Shown here: piece after piece, positions 1-47,600 of the stretch
Layout of the letters: every line of letters starts with the position of its first letter
Numbering within the stretch: the first letter of the stretch is position 1
IMG/VR virus record: IMGVR_UViG_3300045988_132551
DNA length: 47,600 nucleotides
From: a virus
Reading direction: 5' to 3' (one strand)
Translations under genes and position numbers: made by a program
Notes under the pieces: model-generated
Databases searched by the model: none
What the model was told of the DNA's origin: nothing
The model's input: only the letters and a program-made list of their open reading frames with translations

Positions 1-99
1 AGCTCCTTTTATAGTTTTTATAAGAGATGTTGTTTTAGACGTGCAGCTGTGATATATTATAAGTATAAAAGACGTTCAGTCGTACTTAATTTTAGAAAG
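1..99. repeat. terminal direct repeat, copy 1 (identical to 47502..47600); circular-closure overlap of the contig
   Basis: The string agctccttttatagtttttataagagatg...ttttagaaag is read at both ends of the window. Confidence 0.95.
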
Positions 100-108
100 T
101 ATATTGCT

Positions 109-504
109 ATGGAACTTGATACTAATAATCATTCAGTGTTCATGCTTAATTATCATTTAATTATGTGTGTCAAATACAGGAATAATGTTATTGATGATGC
201 GATCTCATTACGGCTTAAAGAGATATTTAAAAACATATGCCTTAATTATAATATTTCGTTGGAAGAATGGAATCACGATAAAGACCATGTTCATGTACTG
301 TTCAGAGGACAGCCTAATAGTGAGATTTCTAAATTTATCAATGCTTATAAATCAGCAAGCAGTAGACTTATAAAAAAAGAATATCCAGAAATCAAGAAAC
401 ATTTATGGAAGGATATGTTCTGGTCACAAAGCTATTGTTTGATATCTACAGGTGGGGTGACCGTAGATATTATTAAGGAATATATTCAAACGCAAGGAAG
501 GTAA
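109..504 (+). CDS. tnpA: IS200/IS605 Y1 (HUH) transposase TnpA
   Basis: HUH motif in DHVHVLF, C-terminal SQSYCLISTGG (catalytic Tyr region), size about 130 aa. ORF 49..504 trimmed to the ATG at 109. Confidence 0.9.
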   Translation: MELDTNNHSVFMLNYHLIMCVKYRNNVIDDAISLRLKEIFKNICLNYNISLEEWNHDKDHVHVLFRGQPNSEISKFINAYKSASSRLIKKEYPEIKKHLWKDMFWSQSYCLISTGGVTVDIIKEYIQTQGR

Positions 505-509
505 AATAT

Positions 510-1661
510 ATGTCAAAAGCAAACAAAAGTAACAAGGCAATTAAATATAGACTCTATCCAAATGATGAACAAAAAGTCATGTTTGCAAAAACTTTTGGTT
601 GCTGTCGTTTTGTCTATAACCAATTACTTGCCCTGCAAAAACAAAGATACAAAGATGGAGAATCCCATCTTTCTAAGCTTAAATCAAATGAGTTCGCTAC
701 TCGTACATTAAAAAAAGATTATGATTTTCTCAAAGAAATAGATAAATTTGCTGTTTCAAATGCCGTTTTTCATTTAGCAGACGCCTATGACAGATTTTTT
801 AAAAAACAAAATCATTTTCCTAAATTCAAAAGCAAAAGAAAATCTAAAAAGTCGTATACAACAAATTTTACAAACAACAATATTCTTATTGGTAAAAATG
901 TCATAAAGCTTCCTAAAGTTGGAATGGTCAAAGCTGTTATTCATAAGTTGCCTAAAGATGATTGGAAGCTTAAATCTGTTACTGTCTCTCAAGATAGTGT
1001 CGGTAACTATTTTGCTTCCGTTCTTTTTGAATATGAACAGGAAGACATTCCATCTGTTTCCAAATCAAGTACAAATGCTATTGGACTTGACTATAAATCC
1101 GATGGACTTTATATGGACAGTAATGGGAATAAAGCAGGAGTTCATAAATACTATCGAGAAAGTCATAAGAAGCTTGCTAAAGAACAAAGAAGACTTTTAC
1201 GAAAAGCGGGTTCTAAAAAGAATGAAACAAAATCAAGCAACTGTTTTAAACAAATGAGAAAAGTAAACAGAATCTATAGAAAAATAGCGAATCAACGTCT
1301 CGACAGTCTTCATAAGAAATCTACTGAGATAGCCAATCAGTATGATATCGTATGTGTCGAAGACTTAGATATGAAAGCTATTGGAAATAAAGGTTTTGGC
1401 AATGGAAAAGCGACCTTTGACAACGGTTATGGAATGTTTCTTAATATGCTTGAGTACAAGCTTAAAGAAAGAGGTAAATATTTTGTAAAAGTTGACAAGT
1501 GGTACCCTTCTAGCCAAATCTGTCATTGCTGTGGAAGTGTAAAAAAACTCGACCTAAAAGACCGAGTTTATACATGTGATTGTGGTTATACTGGAGACAG
1601 AGACCATAATGCAGCAATCAATATACTTACAGAAGGATTGAGGATTCTTCAGTCCTTATAG
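510..1661 (+). CDS. tnpB: TnpB (IS605 OrfB-family RNA-guided nuclease)
   Basis: N-terminal KYRLYPNDEQ signature, RuvC-like VCVEDLDMK, zinc ribbon CHCCG..CDCG, C-terminal DRDHNAAINI. SD aaggaagg lies upstream. Confidence 0.9.
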   Translation: MSKANKSNKAIKYRLYPNDEQKVMFAKTFGCCRFVYNQLLALQKQRYKDGESHLSKLKSNEFATRTLKKDYDFLKEIDKFAVSNAVFHLADAYDRFFKKQNHFPKFKSKRKSKKSYTTNFTNNNILIGKNVIKLPKVGMVKAVIHKLPKDDWKLKSVTVSQDSVGNYFASVLFEYEQEDIPSVSKSSTNAIGLDYKSDGLYMDSNGNKAGVHKYYRESHKKLAKEQRRLLRKAGSKKNETKSSNCFKQMRKVNRIYRKIANQRLDSLHKKSTEIANQYDIVCVEDLDMKAIGNKGFGNGKATFDNGYGMFLNMLEYKLKERGKYFVKVDKWYPSSQICHCCGSVKKLDLKDRVYTCDCGYTGDRDHNAAINILTEGLRILQSL

Positions 1662-1831: not shown

Positions 1832-2031
1832 GATATATTGCTAGAGATAAGGATGAATTATTATTTGCTTGTGATATAAAACCACGTAAAATACAAGATA
1901 GATGGGATGTAATCGAAAGGGTAAAAAAAATTAACTTTAATGATTTATTTTCATTTATTAAATGGGAAGATAAAGAACCCTATCCTATCACATATATCTT
2001 GGATAATTGTGAGGTAGATGAAAATGTGTAA
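1816..2031 (+). pseudogene. C-terminal fragment of the IS-interrupted paralog-family gene
   Basis: The frame reads IGHGYRYIARDKDELLFACDIKPRKIQDRWDVIERVKKINFNDLFSFIKWEDKEPYPITYILDNCEVDENV*. This matches the C-terminal domain of the paralogs (..YICRD.., ..WE..P..I.D.L.NCE.VE..). Confidence 0.75.
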
Positions 2032-2098
2032 GAGTCACTTGTCATGTAGATATGGAATAATGTTAGATTATAAAATTATTAAAGAAGGAGAGAGAAAG

Positions 2099-2587
2099 AT
2101 GAAATATGAATTAAAAAATCCAGGTAAAAGCTGGTGGGTTAAAGGAATGGTTGTTGAAGGAGAAATTGATGGAAGAACTAAAATTTTAGAAGTCGACAGT
2201 ATTGATATTTGTAGATTGAACAAAGACATTATGACTAAAGAACAAATCATTGAATGTATGAAATATCCTAAATGTGGGTTTGGCAAAGACTATTTAAAGG
2301 AAATAAAACCTACTTTTACAATGCTAGAAAAATTACTTCTAGAACATCAATTAGAAATGGGGTACAAATATATTACACGTGATGCAACAGAAAATAGATT
2401 GAATTTTTTCAAAAATAAACCTGTATTTAATGGGGGTGCATGGTTTGGTAAAAATGAAGTTTACTACCCTGTTTTCGATATGTACCTTAAAGAGTTATAT
2501 CCTTTTGTTTCTTATGAGAATGAAGAACCTACTTTAATTCAAGATATTTTAGATAGATATGAGGTGATTGAAAATGAAAAAATTTAA
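2099..2587 (+). CDS. hypothetical protein, paralog family member 2
   Basis: SD gaaggagag precedes the ATG at 2099. Similar to 2574..3065 and to the split gene. Confidence 0.75.
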   Translation: MKYELKNPGKSWWVKGMVVEGEIDGRTKILEVDSIDICRLNKDIMTKEQIIECMKYPKCGFGKDYLKEIKPTFTMLEKLLLEHQLEMGYKYITRDATENRLNFFKNKPVFNGGAWFGKNEVYYPVFDMYLKELYPFVSYENEEPTLIQDILDRYEVIENEKI

Positions 2588-3065
2588 GTTAAAAGTTCCT
2601 AGATACACTTTCGACCATAAAGGTATGATTATTAGAGGAAAACTTCGTGATTGTGAACATATGGTAGATGTGCACGCTGGAGATTTATGCGATGATAATA
2701 TGGATATTATGAGTAAAGAGAACATCAGACAATGTATGATAAAAGGAGATGATTTTACATGGAGATATGAATTAGACGAATTAGAGTTTTTAGAGCCGAT
2801 TAAACTGACTCGTTTAGATTATGAAATGCTCAAATTTGTTCAAAAACAAGGTGCAAAATATATATGTAGAGACCAGAGCGGTCTTTTAAATTTATATGAA
2901 GAAGAGCCTCGTATTATGGGAGATGAGCCTACATGGTGGGCAGGAGGTGAATATTCTTATTTAAGTACTTTTACAAAGCAATTATTCCAATTCGTGACTT
3001 GGGAAAGTCGAAAATATTATATTATTGAAGATGTTTTAGAAAATTGTGAAATCGTGGAGGATTGA
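2574..3065 (+). CDS. hypothetical protein, paralog family member 3
   Basis: SD gaggtg lies 7 nt before the ATG at 2574. C-terminus ..WESRKYYIIEDVLENCEIVED. Confidence 0.75.
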   Translation: MKKFKLKVPRYTFDHKGMIIRGKLRDCEHMVDVHAGDLCDDNMDIMSKENIRQCMIKGDDFTWRYELDELEFLEPIKLTRLDYEMLKFVQKQGAKYICRDQSGLLNLYEEEPRIMGDEPTWWAGGEYSYLSTFTKQLFQFVTWESRKYYIIEDVLENCEIVED

Positions 3066-10886: not shown

Positions 10887-10966
10887 GCCAATTTAGTTTC
10901 AATCAGGTAAAATGTTCTCTAGATGGTGCATAGAGAAAGATGCAGGTTCAAATCCTGTAATTGGCA
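10887..10966 (+). tRNA. tRNA-like gene 1 with a non-canonical (13-nt) anticodon loop
   Basis: Acceptor GCCAATT/AATTGGC + A. D arm GTTT-caatcaggta-AAAT. Stem TTCTC/GAGAA enclosing tagatggtgcata (or a 7-bp stem + 9-nt loop). Variable AGAT. T arm GCAGG-TTCAAAT-CCTGT. Confidence 0.6.
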
Positions 10967-34399: not shown

Positions 34400-35167
34400 T
34401 TATTCAACCCCTAACTCGTCCGCCTTTTCTTCAATCTTTGTCATCATAGAAACTGCTTTTGTTTTAGTTAAAGCCATTTCGCCTTTTTTGAATTTTTCAA
34501 GGTTAGTTAAAGTTTTTTCGCCATATCCTGGTTTCTTTTCTTGACATTTCTTAATCAAGTCAATCATTTCATCTACATAAGCCATTGTCGGTTGGTCGTT
34601 GTTTACGACTTCTTGTTTAGCTTCTTCTCTTTCTTCTTTAGTTGGAGGAGGTGTAGGTTTAGATTTTTTAGGTTCATCCTTTGTTACATTTAAAGGTTTT
34701 TCTTCCGCTTTTCTATCTTCTTTAGCTGACTCTGGGTCGATTTCATCTTGTGTTTCTGGTAACAAGAAGTTATTTAACACAAAGTATTTGATAGCCATTG
34801 TTTCAGCTTTATAAATACCTTTATCTAAATTATCACTGCCTTCTGCAATAATTGGATAGTCTTCAAACTCACCTGTATCTGGGTCAATTAAACTCATATT
34901 TCCTTGAATAGTAATCAAGTTCATATTTTTAGTTTTTTCAAGAGGTGTGAATAATCTATTTACAATAGATAATTTGTAAATCAATCCAACTTCTCTACAT
35001 CCTTGTCCTAATACTTTACGATAGTAAGATGACTTGATGTATTCATATCCTTGTGCATCATTGTACCCATCTGTAATGTAAGGTTGTTTTGCTAAATATA
35101 GACCTAAATCAAAAATCTTTTTGTATAGAGCTGGTCTTGGCTCTAATTTTGTTTTAGCTACTGCCAT
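34400..35167 (-). CDS. ERF-like single-strand annealing protein (possible independent product from an internal ATG)
   Basis: Internal AAAGGAG-N10-ATG (MAVAKTK..) lies just downstream of the A8 run at 35193-35200. Confidence 0.45.
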   Translation of the reverse strand: MAVAKTKLEPRPALYKKIFDLGLYLAKQPYITDGYNDAQGYEYIKSSYYRKVLGQGCREVGLIYKLSIVNRLFTPLEKTKNMNLITIQGNMSLIDPDTGEFEDYPIIAEGSDNLDKGIYKAETMAIKYFVLNNFLLPETQDEIDPESAKEDRKAEEKPLNVTKDEPKKSKPTPPPTKEEREEAKQEVVNNDQPTMAYVDEMIDLIKKCQEKKPGYGEKTLTNLEKFKKGEMALTKTKAVSMMTKIEEKADELGVE

Positions 35168-37108
35168 TTTCTTTTTCTCCTTTGTTTTCTTATTTTTTTT
35201 AATGCCTAGAAAATCATTTATTCTTTTCTTTGCAAGATTAATATACCACTCTTTATCAATAGTGTCAATAGTAATTTTACAAGAATTGTCTATAAGTGCA
35301 TGTTGAGGACAATTTTGGATTGTGTCTTTTCTCATAAAGAAATCTCCCTTTTCGTCCGTTTCCCATACTCTCTTATAAGTTTTCTCTCCTTTTTGATTGA
35401 TATAATACCTTGCCCATTTTTCCTCAAAGTCTACTTCTTGAACCAATTCTTTGTCCAAATATGTTTTCTTTACTTTTTTAACTGTACCTAGAGTTTTATC
35501 TTTGACTGCATAGATACGATTTACCCTTTGTACTTCTATTTCTTCACCGTTTACATAATGAACTGTCTTATCGTAACTGCCTCCTGTTTTTCCAATCAAT
35601 TGAAATTGGAAAGGGTCATCACAAGCATTGATAGTATCTTCTACAGGTACATCATTGATAAAATAGTCAATGATAGCCTTTGCTACAATAGAAAATGAGT
35701 TATGCTTGAATGATGGTTTATAATCGCTCACATAAGCACCTTTTACTTTCAATGAACCATCTTCTTTTTCAAGGATATAATTATTCACATCTTTAATAAT
35801 ATAACGCTTGATACCTTCAACTTCCAACTCTAGACGTGTTCTCTTTTGCCATTCATCCATTACCGCATTGGCTATATCCATTTCGCTTTCATGAATAATA
35901 AAAGCGACACCATCTGTATTTACATTAGTAAGTCTAATTGTCTTACATTGTTTACATAACTCAATGCATAAGTCCGTCAATAGTAACTGTCCTGTCGCAC
36001 ATACTGAACGACCATTACGTGGGTCGTAGCAATCACTAAACTGTTGTAAGGAAATACCATAAACTGTATTGATAGGTACTTTAAGAGAATTTGCTACTCT
36101 CTTGTCACCTCTATGTTTAGCGTCAATACGTTCTTTCTTCATGTTGAAGAATTTGTTAGGGTCTGGTACTGCACGGCTCGTAAGTCCATATTCTTCCATC
36201 AATGATGGATATAGGGAAGTTACATCTGCAATCTTTTGAACATGTCCATCTTTGTTTACAATGATTTCATTTTGAACACTCGCATGAACACCTCCCCATG
36301 CGAATACCCATTCCAAACCTAAAAAATCAATTTTAAGTTTCTTATTGAAAAGTACCTCCGTAGGGATATTTTCATCAAAAGCTTGGTTAAAGAAGTCCTG
36401 CACTTCTTCAGGGATATTATTCCAATTTACAGTATCTGGAAACTGAATATCTCTTTCATCATTAAACTCACATCTTTCAGCACCTAAAGAGATACTCGCT
36501 AACTGCCCATTTGTTCGATATAAAGACTCTTCTGGTGTTAAACCTTCTCTCGTACCATTGAATACTTTAGCTTCTAGATAGTCCATTCTTTCGTCAATTA
36601 AACATGATGTAGCATCAACATCATGATGACAATAGAATAACATTTCGTCAAATTCTTCTTTAGTCCACGGATGGTCTATTTTGAAATCTACAGTTGACTC
36701 TTGAATGTCCATGAGCATATTACCTTCAAGTTCCTTTAAAGATTGTCTTAAAGGCATATCCAACATGAGATCACTGGTAGGTGGTATTTTGATATACGGT
36801 TGGTCGAATGGATATGTCCATCCATCTTGATGTTCTTCGATAATATAATCGTTAATATCCTTGATATAATCTGGTGTATAATGATTTAAAACACCTTTAA
36901 GGATATAATTATCATAATGTTTATTATTATATCCTACATAGATAAAATCATGCTTATTGATAAAATCCTCAACACCCTGTGGGTCATTGTGAAAATCATA
37001 AAATATACCCGTCTGTCTATCTTTGATGCATAGAAGCCAATCGTAAGCTGTAACTTCAAAGTCAAAAGCTACTAATCTACTTTTCCACCCATCATCTTGT
37101 TTTCCCAT
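34400..37108 (-). CDS. family-B DNA polymerase (3'-5' exo + pol) fused in frame to an ERF-like single-strand annealing domain
   Basis: Exo motifs FDFEVT, YNNKHYDNYIL, HHDVDAT. Pol motifs DVTSLYPS, KVPINTVYG, NVNTDGV. The C-terminal 256 aa have an ERF-like ..DKGIYKAETMAIKYFVLNNF. Confidence 0.75.
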   Translation of the reverse strand: MGKQDDGWKSRLVAFDFEVTAYDWLLCIKDRQTGIFYDFHNDPQGVEDFINKHDFIYVGYNNKHYDNYILKGVLNHYTPDYIKDINDYIIEEHQDGWTYPFDQPYIKIPPTSDLMLDMPLRQSLKELEGNMLMDIQESTVDFKIDHPWTKEEFDEMLFYCHHDVDATSCLIDERMDYLEAKVFNGTREGLTPEESLYRTNGQLASISLGAERCEFNDERDIQFPDTVNWNNIPEEVQDFFNQAFDENIPTEVLFNKKLKIDFLGLEWVFAWGGVHASVQNEIIVNKDGHVQKIADVTSLYPSLMEEYGLTSRAVPDPNKFFNMKKERIDAKHRGDKRVANSLKVPINTVYGISLQQFSDCYDPRNGRSVCATGQLLLTDLCIELCKQCKTIRLTNVNTDGVAFIIHESEMDIANAVMDEWQKRTRLELEVEGIKRYIIKDVNNYILEKEDGSLKVKGAYVSDYKPSFKHNSFSIVAKAIIDYFINDVPVEDTINACDDPFQFQLIGKTGGSYDKTVHYVNGEEIEVQRVNRIYAVKDKTLGTVKKVKKTYLDKELVQEVDFEEKWARYYINQKGEKTYKRVWETDEKGDFFMRKDTIQNCPQHALIDNSCKITIDTIDKEWYINLAKKRINDFLGIKKNKKTKEKKKMAVAKTKLEPRPALYKKIFDLGLYLAKQPYITDGYNDAQGYEYIKSSYYRKVLGQGCREVGLIYKLSIVNRLFTPLEKTKNMNLITIQGNMSLIDPDTGEFEDYPIIAEGSDNLDKGIYKAETMAIKYFVLNNFLLPETQDEIDPESAKEDRKAEEKPLNVTKDEPKKSKPTPPPTKEEREEAKQEVVNNDQPTMAYVDEMIDLIKKCQEKKPGYGEKTLTNLEKFKKGEMALTKTKAVSMMTKIEEKADELGVE

Positions 37109-40966: not shown

Positions 40967-41174
40967 TCACCCCACAATATTTAGTAATTTCGTATTTTTC
41001 AATCAATCCTTGCACGGTTTCATCATCTTTTGCATCTTGAAAATATTCTCTTTCTTTCATTTCACATAAAATAGGTACTCCACCAAAACGTACATTCACT
41101 TCGTAAAGTAATTCATCTACTGCTAACAATAAGTCTAATTCAAAATCTTTTTTAAATTTTTCTCTTTCATTCAT
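40953..41174 (-). CDS. hypothetical protein
   Basis: Coupled ORF. Confidence 0.5.
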   Translation of the reverse strand: MNEREKFKKDFELDLLLAVDELLYEVNVRFGGVPILCEMKEREYFQDAKDDETVQGLIEKYEITKYCGVIEDE

Positions 41175-41640
41175 CTTCTATTACCTCACAATTTTCTAAT
41201 AATTCTTTGATATTAGTTGGTTTTTCATCTTCCCAAGAAAGGAAATCGAATAATTCTTTTTTAAAAACATCGCTAAAACCAGCAATATCACCCTTACCAT
41301 ATACAGTCCACCTTTTGTTGTTATCTTGTGTATATTTTTCAGGCTTAAATTTATAACACCAAACAGTACCTTTTTCATCCTTGGCAATCCATTTATACTT
41401 ATTATTTAAACTTTCTAAAAAGTATTTAGTTGCTAAAGAAATTTTAACTTTTGGCTTTTTATATTCTTCATATAGCCATTCAAACATGTTTTTGGGACAA
41501 TATTCACTATTACCACTATTACTAAATTTACAATCCCTACAATAAAAACCAATACATGATACTAATTCATTGCTTTTATTTAGAGCAATTTCACCTTTTA
41601 ATTCTTTAATTTTATCTTCATAAACTTCAAAGTTTTTCAT
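41167..41640 (-). CDS. hypothetical protein sharing the C-terminal domain of the plus-strand paralog family
   Basis: ..KYKWIAKDEKG...LFDFLSWEDEKPTNIKELLENCEVIEDE compared with ..WESRKYYIIEDVLENCEIVED. Confidence 0.6.
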   Translation of the reverse strand: MKNFEVYEDKIKELKGEIALNKSNELVSCIGFYCRDCKFSNSGNSEYCPKNMFEWLYEEYKKPKVKISLATKYFLESLNNKYKWIAKDEKGTVWCYKFKPEKYTQDNNKRWTVYGKGDIAGFSDVFKKELFDFLSWEDEKPTNIKELLENCEVIEDE

Positions 41641-41904: not shown

Positions 41905-42024
41905 TTAAATCACTCCCATCATTTTAAGTATGAACATCAATATTTCAACTATCGCCCATGAAAAACAAACTAGTATATCGATAACTAAAAATCCTTCTAA
42001 AAATTCTTTCATCTTTTCTTTCAT
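41905..42024 (-). CDS. small membrane protein (39 aa)
   Basis: MKEKMKEFLEGFLVIDILVCFSWAIVEILMFILKMMGVI. It exactly fills the gap between flanking genes. Below the cut-off. Confidence 0.4.
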   Translation of the reverse strand: MKEKMKEFLEGFLVIDILVCFSWAIVEILMFILKMMGVI

Positions 42025-42026
42025 TT

Positions 42027-42533
42027 TTAGTTCACTTCCTTATATACCTTTAAAGTTTCAGTTCCTTTTTCCAAAGTTTCTTCATGCGAAGATACATAAA
42101 CATCAATCTTGTTACCTATGATTTTATTTCCTGTGTCCTCGGCTGTGTATTCTATCCCTTCTATGATTACTTTACTATCAAGTGGTATTACATTAGGGTC
42201 TACTGCTATTGTGTGTTGAGGACGAGGAATTGTACCTCTATAGGTGATATTTCCCCATACACCGTTGCATACATCACAACCACAATAATAAGTAATTTTA
42301 AACTCTCCTATGCACTCTACAGTTTTGACTTCATGTACTACATAAGGCTCTTGATTTAACAGTATATGACACATAGTATCAACTGTCTTTTTCTCTTTCA
42401 TAATTTTGTTATATTTAGTAGTCAAATCATTATAATCTTCTACCAGATTGCTATGTTTATAACTGACAAAGATAAGAGAAAATAACATCATCCATGTTAC
42501 TATGGTTGATAAAACTTTTTCATATTTTCTCAT
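42027..42533 (-). CDS. membrane-anchored 3D-domain (MltA/YuiC-like) protein
   Basis: N-terminal TM. FKITYYCGCDVCNG...GT.P....IAVDPNVIPLDSKV.IEG..YTAEDTGNKI.GNKIDVY is the 3D-domain pattern. Confidence 0.7.
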   Translation of the reverse strand: MRKYEKVLSTIVTWMMLFSLIFVSYKHSNLVEDYNDLTTKYNKIMKEKKTVDTMCHILLNQEPYVVHEVKTVECIGEFKITYYCGCDVCNGVWGNITYRGTIPRPQHTIAVDPNVIPLDSKVIIEGIEYTAEDTGNKIIGNKIDVYVSSHEETLEKGTETLKVYKEVN

Positions 42534-42587
42534 AAATTATCACCCCATTTCTTGCCGTGTTATAAATTTTATTTACTTCTAACATAA

Positions 42588-43028
42588 CTAACCTCCTATG
42601 AACTCTTTCAATTTGTATTTTATAAAGCAAAGACTGACTTGTGGCTTAGCTACAGACTTACGAGGGTCAATCCTCATTTTATCTACAGTTCTCAACTCAC
42701 TAAAGTTCAATCTGGATTTTGTTTTCTTTCCATTGATAACTACACGTATATCCATTTCTGTAGATACCGTACAATCATCTTTGACACTTGTAGATGGGAT
42801 GACGAGCATTTTATCCCTGAACTTTTTCACTACATAACACCAATGACCGAAACACATTTCATGCGGAAAACCTACATCTAAATTGACATAAACCATATCC
42901 CCCTCATGAAACTCAATAGGTGGATTGTAAAACCATCTAGGGTCGTTATTAGAGTGTCTCCAATAAAAATCCCATTGAGAGGACGTATGCTTATAAGCAT
43001 ATTCTAAATTTTCTTTAGTTACTTCCAT
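42588..43028 (-). CDS. PemK/MazF-family toxin-like protein with an N-terminal extension
   Basis: GDMVYVNLD....E...GHW.YVV ...VIPSTS ... FSELRTVDKMRI parallels EndoA/MazF GDVYFADL..V.GSEQGG.RPVLV ... LLEQIRTIDKQRL. Confidence 0.65.
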   Translation of the reverse strand: MEVTKENLEYAYKHTSSQWDFYWRHSNNDPRWFYNPPIEFHEGDMVYVNLDVGFPHEMCFGHWCYVVKKFRDKMLVIPSTSVKDDCTVSTEMDIRVVINGKKTKSRLNFSELRTVDKMRIDPRKSVAKPQVSLCFIKYKLKEFIGG

Positions 43029-43245
43029 AAGCTAATCCCTCCAATTCTTCTAATCTTTCATTTAATTCATCCACTTCTGCAATCAAATCTTCCGCTTCTT
43101 CACTTTCTAAATCTGTTTCAGAAATTTCATCTTGAAGTTCTTCTAATTTTTCTTTAACTTCTTCAATTTCTTCTAAAACTCTTTGGTCTGGCTCATTATT
43201 GTAATAAGCTTCATTTGTGATTCTTTCCAAATAAGCATCAAACAT
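43015..43245 (-). CDS. highly acidic coiled-coil protein (candidate antitoxin or DNA mimic)
   Basis: 76 aa, very acidic (many D/E residues). Overlaps the MazF-like gene by 14 nt. Has its own promoter. Confidence 0.6.
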   Translation of the reverse strand: MFDAYLERITNEAYYNNEPDQRVLEEIEEVKEKLEELQDEISETDLESEEAEDLIAEVDELNERLEELEGLAYGSN

Positions 43246-43260
43246 TTTTATATTTCCTTT

Positions 43261-43293
43261 GATAACCTTTGGTTATCTCCTTTGGTTATCTCC
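43261..43293 (-). promoter_or_regulatory. 5' leader with the palindrome GATAACCAAAGGTTATC and a 2 x 13-nt tandem repeat (GGAGATAACCAAA)
   Basis: Read directly between promoter 43335 and the start codon at 43245. Confidence 0.6.
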
Positions 43294-43306
43294 TTTCCTT
43301 GACTAT

Positions 43307-43335
43307 ATATTACTATAGATTTCTAATAATGTCAA
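43307..43335 (-). promoter_or_regulatory. strong sigma70-type promoter TTGACA-N17-TAATAT (minus strand)
   Basis: Reverse complement of tgtcaa (43330-43335) and atatta (43307-43312), with a 17-nt spacer. Confidence 0.65.
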
Positions 43336-43345
43336 CAAATATATG

Positions 43346-43377
43346 AAAAAAGAGTAAAAATATTTTTACTCTTTTTC
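43346..43377. terminator. bidirectional rho-independent terminator
   Basis: aaaaa-agagtaaaa-(at)-ttttactct-ttttt. It overlaps the stop of 43366..43629. Confidence 0.65.
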
Positions 43378-43629
43378 TTCATCATATGTGCAAATTATAA
43401 ATTTTTCATTAAAAGTATCTGAATAACTCCATGCGTTATATGACACTAAACCATTTCCTTTCATTTCAATATCACCTGCGTCTAAATTTTTAACTTTCGT
43501 ATCTAGCAATTTTTCATTGCAAAAAGGTATCATGTTTCTAGATAAGACTAAATTAGTTCCTTCGATATTTTTAATATATAAAATCGACGCTCCACCTTTC
43601 ATATTTTCTAATACTTCTCTTACTGTCAT
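43366..43629 (-). CDS. hypothetical protein
   Basis: SD AAGGAGG before the ATG at 43629 (MTVREV..). Confidence 0.55.
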   Translation of the reverse strand: MTVREVLENMKGGASILYIKNIEGTNLVLSRNMIPFCNEKLLDTKVKNLDAGDIEMKGNGLVSYNAWSYSDTFNEKFIICTYDEEKE

Positions 43630-43642
43630 TTTCTTTTCCTCC

Positions 43643-45790
43643 TTATGCACTTACGGTGAATGATTTCTTATAGTTCTTCAATTTAATACCTACGACACCT
43701 CGAACTTGTTTTTTATTGATGTACACCTTTTCTTTTGAAATCAATTCATTTACCCTTTGTGGGTTCATTAATTTTTTGCTCAATGTACTCTTATATGTTC
43801 TTCTAATGGTTTTTCCGAAAGTGTTTTTATGAATAATTAAATAGCTATTATCTTGACACCAATTTTCATAAGCATCATATAATTGTTTAATTGATACTTT
43901 ATCTTCTTCATCAAATGTATAATCAATAAATTGTTCGTCATTCATAAATAATTGTATCGTATCACTGTTGTCTCTCAACGATTGAACCTCATCACTCATA
44001 CGTTTTGATGGCTCAATAATAAATCCATTCTTAACGACTCTGCACAATCCTTCTAACATCCAATTTATAATACCCGGTATTTCTTTGTCAAGCTGGTCAG
44101 ATAAAGTCCTATCCGGCTTGTCATAATGTACAGGACGAACTTTGCATAGTAATAGTCTACGATAGAACCCGTCTGTTCTATCAAATTTAGATTGAATGGC
44201 TCCATTTCCGCAACAAATTATCCTTGAATAAAGTTTAGTCTTGTATTTAGGCTTTCCTTTAACTTCTACTTCCATAGCTGTTTCAGCTGTCACTATCTTT
44301 TTGAAATTGGAAGTATCATCTAATGCCGTAAGCGTTAATTCATCATCCATAAACAACATTTGCTTGTCTAAAGATGATGTAGAGAATTTATCCTGTAGAC
44401 CTTCAAAATCACCTACAACGACGTTATCAGCTCCTATGATATGTTCCATTAGAACAGGTATTCTAGACTTACCTTCCCCACCCTCTCCTATAATGAATAA
44501 AGCTGTTTGAGCAAGAGTGTTCGGTACCAAACAATATCCTAAATATTCTTGAATGACAGGAATGTCCTCTTCATAGAAAAGGTTATTGATAAACCTTTTG
44601 AATTTAGGACAGTCCGCTTTAGCGTCATAATTGTGCGGTATCTGATGTAGTGTAAAAAAGGTGTCACATTCTTCAAGCTTTCCGTGTCGAACATCAAAAC
44701 TGATGTTATCGAACTGTACTTTATACTTGTCTGGTGCGTCTAGTTTAGTGAATGCTTCATTCTTGACACTCGCTAATAGAGACTCTACTTTAGCTGACAA
44801 ACGAGTTGTAATAATACCACCTATAATATTATGAATATTGTTTCTAAACTCATTATCGCTAATTTGACCATAACGTGTATAAAATCTATCATTGATACAA
44901 TAAAGTTCATTTCTTTTAACATACCATTCGGCAAATTTCTTGTCATTGATATTGACTGTTCCTGTTTCATCAAAAGAAATCCAGTCTACTTTCAAATCAT
45001 CTTCATTACTAGAGTCTAATTTTGACTCATTGATACTTTTTTCGACATTATTTGCTTTATTCGTCTTATCCGTTTTAATCATAGAGTCGACAATCGTTTT
45101 CACTTCATCTTCGTCAAGAGGTGGATTACACGACTCTTCATTATACTTCAAAGCTTTTTTCAATACTGTCGCTTTCTTTAATTTTTTGCCTAATAGAGAG
45201 CCGACATAACTCGCTAGGGTATTATTACGTCCACCTTCTTCGACCTCGCTAGGTGCTTCAAATGGCTTGTTTGAAAGTAACAATGTATCTTCATCTACTT
45301 CTTCACATAAATACTGTTTCCATTTTTGAGGTAGTTCCGCTATCTCATACTCAAATGGACTATTCACCCACTCGTAGTAAGTACCGTCAATTTGACTTGG
45401 TGCTTCTACTGTTTGAGTACCATCCGCCTGTATGTCAATCCCCTCACCGACATTCTTTCTATTTCTAATTCCTTTGACGTATTTGAAATAGTAATGAATA
45501 CCACCGCTAGGTGTTTCACTCATAACTGTTTGAGGAAGTTCTCCTAACTGTTCTTCTAATTTTTCTAGGGTAGCTACACCATCTGCATTTTTGACATCCA
45601 CGTCGATGCATACAAGATTGCTTGTCGCTCCCATGATGATACCTATGTTTGAGGTATCTTTGAATTTATCCAATGTTTCATCATTGGATTGTATTTTCGA
45701 CCAATTCTTGATGATAGGTCTTTTATCGTTTGGTTTGATGGGCATGACTACCCATCCCAATTTATCATAAGCTTTTGCATATTCTAGCAT
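43643..45790 (-). CDS. bifunctional prim-pol / D5-P4-type primase-helicase
   Basis: N-terminal prim-pol pattern (..VMPIKPNDKRP.., LVCIDVDV). P-loop GEGGEGKS, Walker B LFMDDE, D5/P4-family C-terminus. ATG 45790 preferred over GTG 45796 (SD AGGAGG spacing). Confidence 0.8.
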   Translation of the reverse strand: MLEYAKAYDKLGWVVMPIKPNDKRPIIKNWSKIQSNDETLDKFKDTSNIGIIMGATSNLVCIDVDVKNADGVATLEKLEEQLGELPQTVMSETPSGGIHYYFKYVKGIRNRKNVGEGIDIQADGTQTVEAPSQIDGTYYEWVNSPFEYEIAELPQKWKQYLCEEVDEDTLLLSNKPFEAPSEVEEGGRNNTLASYVGSLLGKKLKKATVLKKALKYNEESCNPPLDEDEVKTIVDSMIKTDKTNKANNVEKSINESKLDSSNEDDLKVDWISFDETGTVNINDKKFAEWYVKRNELYCINDRFYTRYGQISDNEFRNNIHNIIGGIITTRLSAKVESLLASVKNEAFTKLDAPDKYKVQFDNISFDVRHGKLEECDTFFTLHQIPHNYDAKADCPKFKRFINNLFYEEDIPVIQEYLGYCLVPNTLAQTALFIIGEGGEGKSRIPVLMEHIIGADNVVVGDFEGLQDKFSTSSLDKQMLFMDDELTLTALDDTSNFKKIVTAETAMEVEVKGKPKYKTKLYSRIICCGNGAIQSKFDRTDGFYRRLLLCKVRPVHYDKPDRTLSDQLDKEIPGIINWMLEGLCRVVKNGFIIEPSKRMSDEVQSLRDNSDTIQLFMNDEQFIDYTFDEEDKVSIKQLYDAYENWCQDNSYLIIHKNTFGKTIRRTYKSTLSKKLMNPQRVNELISKEKVYINKKQVRGVVGIKLKNYKKSFTVSA

Positions 45791-47501: not shown

Positions 47502-47600
47502 AGCTCCTTTTATAGTTTTTATAAGAGATGTTGTTTTAGACGTGCAGCTGTGATATATTATAAGTATAAAAGACGTTCAGTCGTACTTAATTTTAGAAAG
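47502..47600. repeat. terminal direct repeat, copy 2 (identical to 1..99)
   Basis: Exact 99-nt match to the window start. Confidence 0.95.

What the first reader, a model, noticed from the sequence alone, without database searches (positions are those of the whole stretch)
42588..43335. Self-contained early module: strong promoter, palindromic repeat-bearing leader, acidic 76-aa protein and an overlapping MazF/PemK-like toxin
The 146-aa protein carries the diagnostic PemK/MazF blocks: GDMVYVNLD, an E..(G)H..YVV strand, VIPSTS, and SELRTVDKMRI (compare EndoA EQIRTIDKQRL). It also has an N-terminal extension of about 40 aa.

Its gene overlaps by 14 nt an upstream gene for an extremely acidic coiled-coil protein. 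That is the antitoxin position, though the protein has no obvious DNA-binding fold.

The pair sits behind a bidirectional terminator (43346-43377) and its own consensus promoter (43335-43307). The leader contains a perfect palindrome GATAACCAAAGGTTATC and two tandem copies of GGAGATAACCAAA, each with an SD-like GGAG. These resemble an autoregulatory operator or a translational decoy.

In the early arm of an apparently non-integrating phage, this could be a host-shutoff RNase, an addiction module for a plasmid-like prophage state, or a counter-defence (the acidic protein acting as a DNA mimic).
Basis: partly seen in the sequence, partly recalled or inferred. Interest (0 to 1): 0.7.

Follow-up and report, generated by a model that had tools for sequence, protein, structure and literature searches.

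The report
Phage MazF-like protein with acidic partner
A gut phage carries a divergent MazF/PemK-fold protein, probably an RNA-cutting enzyme with a histidine where the usual catalytic arginine sits, always next to a tiny very acidic partner; this is a new variant of a well-known toxin family, and neither toxicity nor neutralisation has been shown.

Summary
Both minus-strand ORFs, their 14-nt overlap, the terminator, the promoter-like site, the palindrome and the tandem 13-mer are all at the stated coordinates.

**The 146-aa protein has a MazF/PemK fold.**
- The AF2 model has pLDDT 84, and all 50 best PDB matches are MazF, EndoA or MoxT.
- A family profile against canonical MazF gives 96% probability (E 3e-9) in hhalign.
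- 29 of 63 relatives hit PF02452. The window protein itself scores below Pfam's cut-off (19.6 against 23.1 bits).

**It belongs to an undescribed subfamily.**
- The subfamily has an N-terminal helical extension.
- An invariant His replaces the catalytic Arg, while the catalytic Thr is kept.
- Most members are solo chromosomal genes in housekeeping neighbourhoods of Erysipelotrichales and Cellulosilyticaceae, with no antitoxin.

**The acidic partner is confined to these phages.**
- Its net charge is -23. The model shows a helical hairpin and no DNA-binding fold.
- It accompanies the shortened phage form in every close relative checked, and survives as 28-55-aa acidic peptides in three more distant phage lineages.

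**The leader is not a conserved regulatory site.**
- The tandem duplication occurs only in this window.
- The palindrome is deleted in one relative and absent from distant phages.

**The pair is not self-contained.** It heads a longer replication operon.

Best reading: a phage endoribonuclease restrained by an acidic peptide. This is inferred, not shown.

The parts
43346..43377 (-). Intrinsic terminator-like hairpin ending the upstream primase/94-aa unit. It is A-tract/T-tract flanked, so it could act in both directions.
   Evidence: It is a 15+15-nt perfect inverted repeat. It is conserved in 25 close relatives. Analogous hairpins occupy the same place in L107, L109 and L111.
43307..43335 (-). 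Sigma-A/sigma-70-type promoter-like site, TTGACA-17-TAATAT.
   Evidence: It matches 10 of 12 consensus positions and is unique in the window. It is conserved in close relatives with only 1-2 substitutions. The match alone is not above chance in this AT-rich DNA.
43246..43300 (-). Inferred 5' leader. It holds the palindrome GATAACCAAAGGTTATC (43261-43277) and the window-specific tandem duplication of GGAGATAACCAAA (43268-43293).
   Evidence: The features are located. The RNA fold is -10.6 kcal/mol with z = -3.05. Copy number of the unit is 0 in L124, 1 in 24 relatives and 2 only in the window. Two of three arm variants keep G.U pairing in the sense RNA. No Rfam family matches.
43015..43245 (-). 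Gene for the 76-aa acidic protein (net charge -23). It has an invariant N-terminal motif MFDxYLERITNEAYYNNEPDQRVLE, a hypervariable acidic middle and a conserved C-terminal helix.
   Evidence: The ORF is. Its 38 homologue clusters all come from this phage clade. AF2 gives a helical hairpin (H21-43, H49-73) with a low-confidence N-terminus. Foldseek finds no match with E below 1.
43037..43042 (-). GGAGGG Shine-Dalgarno sequence for the MazF-like gene, inside the 3' end of the acidic gene. This is a translational-coupling arrangement.
   Evidence: Read directly from the sequence. The 14-nt overlap is kept in every close relative examined.
42588..43028 (-). Gene for the 146-aa MazF/PemK-fold protein of the short phage form. 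His62 occupies the catalytic-Arg position and Thr80 the catalytic-Thr position.
   Evidence: Pfam PF02452 gives E 0.0011 and 19.6 bits, below the 23.1-bit cut-off. The AF2 model has pLDDT 83.8. Foldseek top hits are all MazF/EndoA/MoxT in the PDB and PemK-like phage proteins in BFVD. hhalign gives 96% probability.
42559..42585 (-). Relic of the first 9 codons (MLEVNKIYN) of an N6/N4 DNA methyltransferase gene. The full gene occupies this slot in relatives.
   Evidence: Comparison with L007, L094 and L096. The methyltransferase is called in L094 and L096 as PF01555.

Best explanation
This is the head of an early or middle replication-arm operon of a 47.5-kb, apparently virulent, human-gut phage.

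**Expression.** After a terminator, a sigma-A-type promoter makes a transcript whose first two cistrons are translationally coupled.

**The second cistron.** It encodes a MazF/PemK-fold protein (shown).
- I infer that it is a dimeric, sequence-specific endoribonuclease acting on single-stranded RNA. An invariant His62 would take the acid/base role of the canonical Arg, and Thr80 would stabilise the transition state.
- I infer that the phage uses it to cut host or its own early mRNAs, for shut-off or temporal switching. This would be analogous to T4 RegB, a phage RNase with a RelE/YoeB toxin fold.

**The first cistron.** It encodes a polyanionic peptide or protein with a short aromatic N-terminal motif ([FY]DxYL...[AT][DN]ExY) followed by an acidic tract.
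- I infer that it binds the basic RNA groove of the MazF-like dimer as an RNA mimic and restrains the enzyme. This is what the acidic C-terminal tail of MazE does.
- It has no DNA-binding domain, so it does not autoregulate transcription.

**The leader.** The palindrome is a dispensable 5'-UTR hairpin, not an operator.

**What is shown and what is inferred.** Shown: the fold, the residue pattern, the gene linkage and the operon position. Inferred: RNase activity, toxicity and binding between the two proteins.
For: **Fold and family**
- The AF2 model has pLDDT 83.8 and pTM 0.79.
- All 50 best PDB matches are MazF/EndoA/MoxT, with E down to 1.7e-4 and target-normalised TM-score mostly 0.6-0.7 for the Gram-positive MazF/EndoA/MoxT chains (0.51-0.60 for E. 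coli MazF).
- The best viral matches are PemK-like phage proteins.
- The family profile against PDB sequences hits only MazF/PemK at E 3e-4 to 1e-2.
- 29 of 63 family members hit PF02452, best E 1.6e-12.
- hhalign against canonical MazFs gives 96% probability and E 3.3e-9 over the whole domain.

**Active-site pattern**

| Window residue | B. subtilis MazF equivalent | Conservation in 63 sequences |
|---|---|---|
| E57 | E20 | 62 |
| H62 | R25 | 63 |
| T80 | T48 | 45 T + 7 S |
| R113 | R81 | 52 |
| R119 | R87 | 61 |

- Strict conservation of this set argues for retained chemistry.
- Active MazFs with Lys in place of the Arg, or Ser in place of the Thr, are reported in PMC7354611.

**Charge complementarity.** The MazF core has pI 9.25 and charge +6. 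The partner has charge -23.

**Linkage of the two genes**
- The pair with its 14-nt overlap is present in the close relatives reached through the MazF-like protein, the acidic protein or the primase, including all 9 primase loci. Flanking genes vary meanwhile.
- Phages whose MazF-like protein is only 31-47% identical still carry a small acidic ORF behind a terminator plus promoter upstream of it (L107, L109/L110, L111/L112).
- The L107 and L109 peptides match the N-terminal motif better than all 300 composition-matched shuffles.
- Long-form homologues, chromosomal or viral, lack any such partner.

**Shape of the partner.** The most conserved segment of the partner is its least confidently folded one. 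That fits a motif that folds on binding.

**Precedent.** T4 RegB is an early phage RNase with a toxin fold (PMC3014915).
Against: - No activity, toxicity or interaction data exist, and no complex could be modelled with these tools.
- The canonical catalytic Arg is missing.
- The window protein is below Pfam's cut-off.
- Most family members are solo chromosomal genes in conserved housekeeping synteny. This suggests the family is not intrinsically lethal and needs no dedicated antitoxin.
- Divergence of the two genes is only weakly correlated across relatives, r = 0.36. L010 has a 99% identical partner with a 66% identical MazF-like protein, and L094 has 63% against 90%. This is not the tight co-variation expected of cognate toxin-antitoxin pairs.
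- In L109 and L111 a small membrane ORF separates the two genes. In L108 a methyltransferase gene lies directly upstream and no acidic ORF is seen in that 842-nt contig.
- The MazF-like gene has the stronger ribosome-binding site (GGAGGG against AAGGA). In most type II modules the antitoxin is the better translated gene (own knowledge).
- Variable orphan DNA methyltransferases sit immediately downstream. This fits an anti-defence island as well as it fits an RNase module.
Confidence: 0.45

Rival explanations
1. The two proteins have separate jobs in an anti-defence or host-takeover island. The MazF-fold protein is a non-toxic RNA-binding or RNA-processing factor captured from the host lineage, where its relatives are solo housekeeping genes. 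The acidic protein is an independent DNA or RNA mimic that blocks a host nuclease or restriction system. Precedents are Ocr, ArdA and T7 Gp5.9. The neighbouring orphan methyltransferases serve the same purpose.
For: - Chromosomal homologues are solo in conserved glmS/ackA or purH neighbourhoods in 120 species genomes.
- Other viral homologues are solo as well.
- Variable C5 or N6/N4 methyltransferase cassettes lie directly downstream in relatives, and a relic remains in the window.
- The partner has an extreme negative charge and a helical hairpin.
- Its middle part is hypervariable, as expected for a protein in an arms race.
- Its divergence is nearly uncoupled from that of the MazF-like protein.
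Against: - The acidic ORF is found only with the short phage form of the MazF-like gene. It stays upstream of that gene across 31-47% identity.
- The conserved 14-nt overlap with an internal Shine-Dalgarno sequence points to coupled stoichiometry.
- There is no structural similarity to any known DNA mimic.
- In distant phages the partner shrinks to 28-33 aa, too short for a DNA-shaped mimic.
Confidence: 0.25
2. The phage protein is a decoy. It is an N-terminally shortened copy of the host's conserved solo MazF-like protein. It heterodimerises with the host protein or titrates its regulator, and so disables a host RNase that would otherwise abort infection. The acidic peptide helps to neutralise the host enzyme.
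For: - The phage form lacks the first helix of the chromosomal form but keeps the rest.
- Homologues are a conserved single-copy gene in Erysipelotrichales, the plausible host group. The host assignment is inferred only from homologue distribution and 32% GC.
- MazF proteins are obligate dimers (own knowledge).
Against: - The active-site residues H62, T80, R113 and R119 are as conserved in the phage clade as in the chromosomal genes. A pure decoy would not need them.
- Identity to chromosomal forms is only about 30-37%, which is low for heterodimer formation.
- The host of this phage is not established.
Confidence: 0.1
3. It is a classical type II addiction (post-segregational killing) module that stabilises a plasmid-like prophage. 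It would have a labile antitoxin, a stable toxin and operator-mediated autoregulation through the leader palindrome.
For: - The gene order is small upstream partner, then overlapping MazF-fold gene.
- The pair has its own promoter and a nearby palindrome.
Against: - The partner has no DNA-binding fold.
- The palindrome lies in the transcribed leader. It is deleted in L124 and absent from L107, L109 and L111.
- No terminator follows the pair, which heads an operon of replication genes.
- The phage encodes its own primase, SNF2 helicase, DNA polymerase and recombination exonuclease. No integrase was seen among the ORFs screened, and this screen was incomplete.
Confidence: 0.05

Closest known systems
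MazF/PemK/EndoA (NdoA) endoribonuclease toxins (Pfam PF02452; B. subtilis MazF 4MDX/4ME7, B. anthracis MoxT 4HKE, S. aureus MazF 4MZM)
   Same: - The fold is the same SH3-like barrel plus C-terminal helix, and all top PDB matches belong to this family.
- The sequence blocks are the same, including the RxxDxxR motif (R113..D116..R119), the conserved Glu (E57) and the catalytic Thr (T80).
- A small acidic partner gene lies upstream and overlaps.
   Different: - The catalytic Arg is replaced by an invariant His.
- There is an N-terminal helical extension of about 40 aa.
- The window protein is below Pfam's cut-off.
- The partner lacks the AbrB/RHH DNA-binding domain of MazE/PemI.
- Most family members have no partner at all.
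Solitary MazF-mx of Myxococcus xanthus (no adjacent antitoxin; regulated by MrpC encoded elsewhere)
   Same: It is a chromosomal MazF-fold gene without an adjacent antitoxin that has been recruited to a host programme (PMC2701414). The long-form chromosomal relatives of the window protein are likewise solo.
   Different: - MazF-mx keeps the canonical sequence type.
- The family described here has the His substitution and an N-terminal extension. It is conserved in synteny across whole bacterial orders.
- No regulator is known for it.
Phage T4 RegB, an early sequence-specific endoribonuclease with a RelE/YoeB toxin fold
   Same: It is a phage-encoded, early-expressed protein with the fold of a toxin-antitoxin RNase, used for mRNA inactivation rather than addiction (PMC3014915). 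This is the functional analogy I favour.
   Different: The fold is different (RelE/YoeB, not MazF). RegB has no known dedicated inhibitor and depends on ribosomal protein S1. No activity data exist for the protein described here.
Acidic C-terminal tail of MazE, and polyanionic phage mimic proteins (T7 Ocr, T7 Gp5.9, ArdA)
   Same: Strong negative charge on a small protein. The MazE tail occupies the RNA groove of MazF, and Ocr and Gp5.9 imitate nucleic acid (own knowledge). The window protein has charge -23 over 76 aa.
   Different: There is no sequence or structural similarity to any of them. The conserved core is a short aromatic motif plus an acidic tract, which is as small as 28 aa in L107.
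PHROG phrog_1412 ('antitoxin mazE-like') and 'PemK-like protein' entries of uncultured phages in BFVD
   Same: These are the best viral profile and fold matches (E 1e-5; E 1e-4). MazF-fold genes in phages are therefore already catalogued.
   Different: The PHROG label (antitoxin) conflicts with the fold evidence (toxin fold). The BFVD proteins share only 11-21% identity with the window protein. None has been characterised.

Membership tests
PemK/MazF superfamily (PF02452) | Significant match to the family profile | tested here: inconclusive
   The window protein gives E 0.0011 and 19.6 bits, below the 23.1-bit gathering score. At family level the match is clear: 29 of 63 relatives hit PF02452 with best E 1.6e-12, and hhalign of the family against canonical MazFs gives 96% probability and E 3.3e-9.
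PemK/MazF superfamily (PF02452) | SH3-like beta-barrel with a C-terminal helix (CcdB/MazF fold) | tested here: met
   The AF2 model has pLDDT 83.8. All 50 top PDB Foldseek hits are MazF/EndoA/MoxT, with target-normalised TM-score up to 0.70. Viral hits are PemK-like.
PemK/MazF superfamily (PF02452) | Catalytic arginine (Arg25 in B. subtilis/B. cereus MazF, Arg29 in E. coli MazF) | tested here: not met
   The aligned position is His62, invariant in 63 of 63 family members. The role of Arg25 is described in PMC7354611, which also reports a Lys variant.
PemK/MazF superfamily (PF02452) | Catalytic threonine (Thr48 in B. subtilis MazF) and the conserved Glu and RxxDxxR motif | tested here: met
   T80 is conserved as 45 T plus 7 S of 63. 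E57 is conserved in 62, R113 in 52, D116 in 51 and R119 in 61 of 63.
PemK/MazF superfamily (PF02452) | Sequence-specific endoribonuclease activity as a homodimer | not testable with these tools
   This needs purified protein, RNA cleavage assays and size-exclusion or crystallography.
Type II toxin-antitoxin module (MazEF/PemIK type) | Small partner gene immediately upstream, co-transcribed and translationally coupled | tested here: met
   A 14-nt overlap and an internal Shine-Dalgarno sequence are present. The arrangement is conserved in every close relative examined.
Type II toxin-antitoxin module (MazEF/PemIK type) | Antitoxin with a DNA-binding domain (AbrB/SpoVT, RHH, HTH) that represses the operon at a promoter-overlapping operator | tested here: not met
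   Pfam, NCBIfam and PADLOC give only coiled-coil noise. AF2 gives a helical hairpin. Foldseek finds no match with E below 1. The palindrome lies downstream of the promoter, is deleted in L124 and is absent from distant phages.
Type II toxin-antitoxin module (MazEF/PemIK type) | Toxin arrests growth, and the partner binds and neutralises it | not testable with these tools
The indirect evidence is mixed: linkage is strong but co-variation is weak (r = 0.36).
Phage DNA-mimic anti-restriction proteins (Ocr/ArdA/Gp5.9 type) | Structural or sequence similarity to a known mimic; polyanionic surface | tested here: inconclusive
   The charge criterion is met (-23.4). No sequence or fold similarity to any solved protein was found. 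Known mimics are not homologous to one another, so absence of similarity does not exclude the function.

The most novel reading that the evidence does not exclude
The 'His-type' MazF-fold proteins with an N-terminal helical extension would be a distinct, uncharacterised RNase family with two life styles.
- One is a vertically inherited solo housekeeping gene of Erysipelotrichales and Cellulosilyticaceae/Epulopiscium.
- The other is a shortened phage form gated by a minimal polyanionic peptide of 28-96 aa, with core motif [FY]DxYL...[AT][DN]ExY plus an acidic tract and no DNA-binding domain.

That would amount to a new, stripped-down toxin/inhibitor architecture used by virulent gut phages for mRNA control. 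The same peptide might also neutralise the host's own enzyme.
Probability: 0.3. Interest if true: 0.65.

Novelty: new variant of a known kind. Interest (0 to 1): 0.5.

Why it matters
MazF-fold genes are often annotated in phage genomes, but their role in virulent phages is unknown.

This case is an experimentally tractable pair with three unusual features:
- an Arg-to-His change at the catalytic site that is invariant across a whole subfamily;
- a partner that can be as small as 28 residues and has no DNA-binding domain;
- chromosomal relatives that behave like core genes of abundant human-gut Firmicutes rather than like selfish toxin-antitoxin loci.

If the protein is an active RNase, three things would follow:
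- it would extend the catalytic repertoire of MazF enzymes;
- it would give a Gram-positive counterpart to T4 RegB-type mRNA control;
- it would point to a conserved, unstudied RNase in Erysipelotrichales.

If it is inactive, it would be a rare example of a toxin fold re-used as a binding module.

The finding is not surprising at the level of 'a phage has a PemK-like gene'.

Tried and rejected
**Searches that found nothing useful**
- Megablast of 42000-44000 against 50,697 phage records gave no match.
- tblastn of the 146-aa protein against the same collection found one unannotated faecal contig at 32% identity.
- phmmer of the single protein against PDB sequences found nothing. NCBIfam found nothing.
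- PADLOC found nothing for the MazF-like protein or its chromosomal homologue, and only coiled-coil noise for the acidic protein.
- Rfam gave no credible family for the leader.
- Foldseek of the acidic-protein model gave only generic helical hairpins with E above 1.
- The broad alignment A2 was too divergent for the search for related loci.
- The one metagenome scan returned only close relatives.

**Gene-fission or frameshift idea, rejected**
- The idea was that the acidic protein's C-terminal helix plus the 146-aa protein equals the long chromosomal form.
- A virtual fusion gained 5.4 bits against the chromosomal HMM, but 2 of 200 composition-matched shuffles did as well or better.
- The acidic-family HMM finds nothing significant in the N-terminal extensions of long forms.

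**Other readings considered**
- Operator reading of the palindrome: rejected. It is unique in the genome, lies in the leader, is deleted in L124, and its arm variants keep G.U pairs in the RNA sense strand.
- CcdB-like gyrase poison: rejected. Every profile and fold hit is to the MazF/PemK branch.
- Tight co-evolution of the pair: not found (r = 0.36).
Full report
**1. The observation.**
- A 76-aa ORF lies at 43015-43245 and a 146-aa ORF at 42588-43028. They overlap by 14 nt, and a GGAGGG ribosome-binding site (43042-43037) sits inside the first gene.
- Upstream lie a 15+15-nt perfect hairpin with a T-run (43347-43376) and TTGACA-17-TAATAT (43335-43307).
- The leader holds the palindrome GATAACCAAAGGTTATC (43261-43277) and two exact tandem copies of GGAGATAACCAAA (43268-43293).
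- The acidic protein has 28 D+E against 5 K+R and a net charge of -23.4.
- Promoter-like hexamers are not enriched in this 32% GC genome: 88 were found against 80.9 +/- 7.7 expected. The promoter therefore rests on conservation rather than on the match.

**2. What the 146-aa protein is.**
- On its own it hits Pfam PemK_toxin at E 0.0011 and 19.6 bits, below the 23.1-bit cut-off. It hits nothing in NCBIfam, PADLOC or PDB sequences.
- Sixteen close homologues gave an AF2 model with pLDDT 83.8 and pTM 0.79. The model has helix 5-28, a beta-barrel and a C-terminal helix.
- All 50 best PDB matches to the model are MazF/EndoA/MoxT, with E down to 1.7e-4 and target-normalised TM-score mostly 0.6-0.7 for the Gram-positive MazF/EndoA/MoxT chains (0.51-0.60 for E. 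coli MazF). The best viral matches are 'PemK-like' proteins of uncultured phages.
- An exhaustive profile search found 99 clusters at E of 1e-3 or better.
- Of 63 full-length members, 29 hit PF02452, best E 1.6e-12.
- The family profile finds only MazF/PemK chains in the PDB at E of 0.013 or better.
- hhalign against five canonical MazF/Kid/ChpBK sequences gives 96% probability and E 3.3e-9 over the whole domain. Part of one close homologue, MoxT, appears in the output.
- The fold assignment is therefore secure.

**3. How it differs from canonical MazF.** In the profile alignment the window residues map onto B. subtilis MazF as follows.

| Window residue | B. subtilis MazF | Conservation in 63 sequences |
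|---|---|---|
| E57 | E20 | 62 |
| H62 | R25 | 63 (invariant) |
| T80 | T48 | 45 T + 7 S |
| R113 | R81 | 52 |
| R119 | R87 | 61 |
| P78 | A46 (not a conserved MazF residue) | 63 (invariant) |

- Arg25 and Thr48 are the experimentally established catalytic pair. Lys-for-Arg and Ser-for-Thr variants remain active (PMC7354611).
- An invariant His at the acid/base position is chemically plausible for an RNase, but I found no report of it.
- The family also has an N-terminal helical extension. It is one helix in the phage form and two in the 170-190-aa forms.

**4. Where the family lives.**
- A scan of one genome per species found 120 genomes with a long-form homologue.
- In Erysipelotrichales (Thomasclavelia, Massilimicrobiota, Catenibacterium, Faecalibacillus, Kandleria and others) the gene sits divergently next to glmS. 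It is followed by ackA or by two membrane-protein genes of 242 and 104 aa.
- In Cellulosilyticaceae/Epulopiscium it follows purH.
- Rfam confirms the glmS ribozyme and a ZMP riboswitch in the flanks. These leave no room for an antitoxin gene.
- Sources name these proteins 'hypothetical protein'.
- Long-form copies on other viral contigs are also solo (L003, L011-L013).
- This is the pattern of a vertically inherited core gene, not of a mobile toxin-antitoxin locus. The nearest precedent is the solitary MazF-mx of Myxococcus (PMC2701414).

**5. The acidic partner.**
- Its 38 homologue clusters all come from contigs of this phage type, about 44-47 kb.
- The first 30 residues (MFDAYLERITNEAYYNNEPDQRVLEEIE) are nearly invariant. 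The middle is hypervariable, with length classes of 76, 79, 83 and 96 aa. The C-terminal helix is conserved.
- AF2 gives a helical hairpin (H21-43, H49-73). Confidence is lowest over the conserved N-terminus. No structural match has E below 1.
- The pair with its 14-nt overlap is present in every close relative examined. These loci were reached through the MazF-like protein, the acidic protein or the primase, and some are the same contig fetched twice.
- Phages whose MazF-like protein is only 31-47% identical also have a small acidic ORF as the first gene behind a terminator and a TTGACA promoter:
  - L107, 28 aa: MFDQWLWDAADESYEERYLDDEELEDGE.
  - L109/L110, 33 aa: ..MFDEYLYGCADESYDARYGDEEEEDYE.
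  - L111/L112, 55 aa: MKEYDEYLWSVADRG...
- The L107 and L109 peptides score above all 300 composition-matched shuffles against the partner HMM, aligned to its N-terminal motif. The L111 peptide does not.
- Against tight coupling:
  - Divergence of the two genes correlates weakly, r = 0.36.
  - A small membrane ORF separates them in L109 and L111.
  - L108 shows a methyltransferase directly upstream of the MazF-like gene.

**6. The leader.**
- Terminator, promoter and leader are almost identical in the close relatives.
- The 13-bp duplication occurs only in the window. Of the 25 relatives, 24 have one copy, and L124 has lost the whole palindrome between two AAAGGA repeats.
- Two arm variants, A-to-G in L007/L116 and C-to-T in L118, keep G.U pairing in the sense RNA. 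One variant (L122) breaks the closing pair.
- The RNA hairpin is modestly stable: -10.6 kcal/mol, z = -3.05.
- The palindrome is unique in the genome and absent from L107, L109 and L111.
- I read it as a dispensable 5'-UTR hairpin in a slippage-prone repeat tract. With its 5' GGAG it may be a modest mRNA stabiliser of the kind known in Bacillus (own knowledge). It is not an operator or an essential decoy.

**7. Context.**
- The window's first and last 99 nt are identical, so it is a circularly closed assembly of 47,501 bp.
- The minus-strand arm runs as follows:
  - Prim-Pol/D5 primase-helicase;
  - a 94-aa gene;
  - terminator and promoter;
  - the acidic gene and the MazF-like gene;
  - a membrane 3D-domain protein;
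  - small genes;
  - an SNF2 helicase;
  - a DNA polymerase;
  - a RecE-like exonuclease;
  - an HNH endonuclease.
- No terminator-like site follows the pair on the minus strand before about 39500.
- No integrase was found among the roughly 30 ORFs screened. That screen was incomplete.
- In relatives a C5 or N6/N4 DNA methyltransferase sits between the MazF-like gene and the 3D gene. The window keeps only the first nine codons of the N6/N4 gene.

**8. Interpretation.**
- Shown: the MazF fold, the subfamily with His for Arg, the solo chromosomal relatives, the phage-specific acidic partner that is linked in evolution, the operon-head position and the non-conserved leader repeat.
- Inferred: RNase activity through His62/Thr80, and inhibition by the polyanionic partner acting as an RNA mimic in the basic groove. 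The core has pI 9.25 and the partner a charge of -23.
- Also inferred is a role in host or phage mRNA control, by analogy with T4 RegB, an early phage RNase with a RelE/YoeB toxin fold (PMC3014915).
- I put this reading at about 0.45.
- The main rival (0.25) treats the two proteins as independent members of an anti-defence island, together with the neighbouring methyltransferases.
- A decoy against the host homologue (0.1) and a classical addiction module (0.05) are less likely.

**9. Novelty and score.**
- PemK-like genes in phages are already catalogued, so the basic claim is ordinary.
- Three things appear new:
  - the invariant Arg-to-His subfamily with an N-terminal extension;
  - its core-gene behaviour in gut Firmicutes;
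  - the minimal acidic partner without a DNA-binding domain.
- Verdict: a new variant of a known kind, interest 0.5.

Noticed in passing
window 1-99 and 47502-47600: The first and last 99 nt are identical. The window is therefore a circularly closed assembly of a complete genome of about 47,501 bp with 32% GC.
   Followed up: yes
window 49-504 and 510-1661 (+): An IS200/IS605-type pair lies inside the phage genome. It consists of a TnpA-like transposase (phrog_2577, E 2.5e-43) and a 383-aa TnpB-like protein (phrog_506, E 1.8e-105).
   Followed up: partly
window 42559-42585 (-); L007, L094, L096, L001, L095, L111: The slot just after the MazF-like gene is a hot spot for orphan DNA methyltransferases. 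It holds a C5 or an N6/N4 gene in relatives, a truncated C5 gene in L006, and only a 9-codon relic of the N6/N4 gene in the window.
   Followed up: partly
window 34400-37108 (-): The 902-aa DNA polymerase (phrog_1252, residues 11-643) carries a C-terminal part matching Erf-like single-strand annealing proteins (phrog_155, residues 680-882, E 2.4e-10). This looks like an unusual fusion.
   Followed up: no
window 42027-42533 (-): The third gene of the operon encodes a 168-aa protein with an N-terminal hydrophobic segment and a 3D domain (PF06725, E 1.1e-12). This is a cell-wall-binding or lytic-type domain expressed from the replication arm rather than the lysis region.
   Followed up: no
window 10887-10966 (+): Rfam reports a tRNA match (43.7 bits, above gathering) but ARAGORN finds no tRNA in the window. 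It may be a degenerate or tRNA-like element.
   Followed up: partly
window 41167-41640 (-), 2018-2587 (+), 2568-3065 (+): Three paralogous genes of the unknown-function family phrog_22292 lie on both arms of the genome.
   Followed up: no
L109 1-1719: A related 50-kb phage contig carries a Ro60/TROVE-vWA protein and a Band_7 protein immediately upstream of its acidic-peptide/MazF-like unit. Ro60-type RNA-binding proteins next to a putative RNase may be worth a look.
   Followed up: no
L109 about 1910-2000; L111 1807-1995: In two divergent phage lineages a small hydrophobic (membrane) ORF is inserted between the acidic peptide gene and the MazF-like gene.
   Followed up: no
P0010, P0012, P0014 (relatives of the 146-aa protein): Three of the 16 close homologue clusters are disrupted alleles. 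One has an in-frame deletion of residues 43-73 that removes His62, and two have altered or truncated C-termini. These may be natural loss-of-function variants or assembly errors.
   Followed up: no
L014-L093 (bacterial genomes): The long-form homologue is a single-copy gene with conserved synteny across Erysipelotrichales (glmS ribozyme-glmS on one side, ackA or two membrane-protein genes on the other) and across Cellulosilyticaceae/Epulopiscium (ZMP riboswitch-purH upstream).
   Followed up: yes
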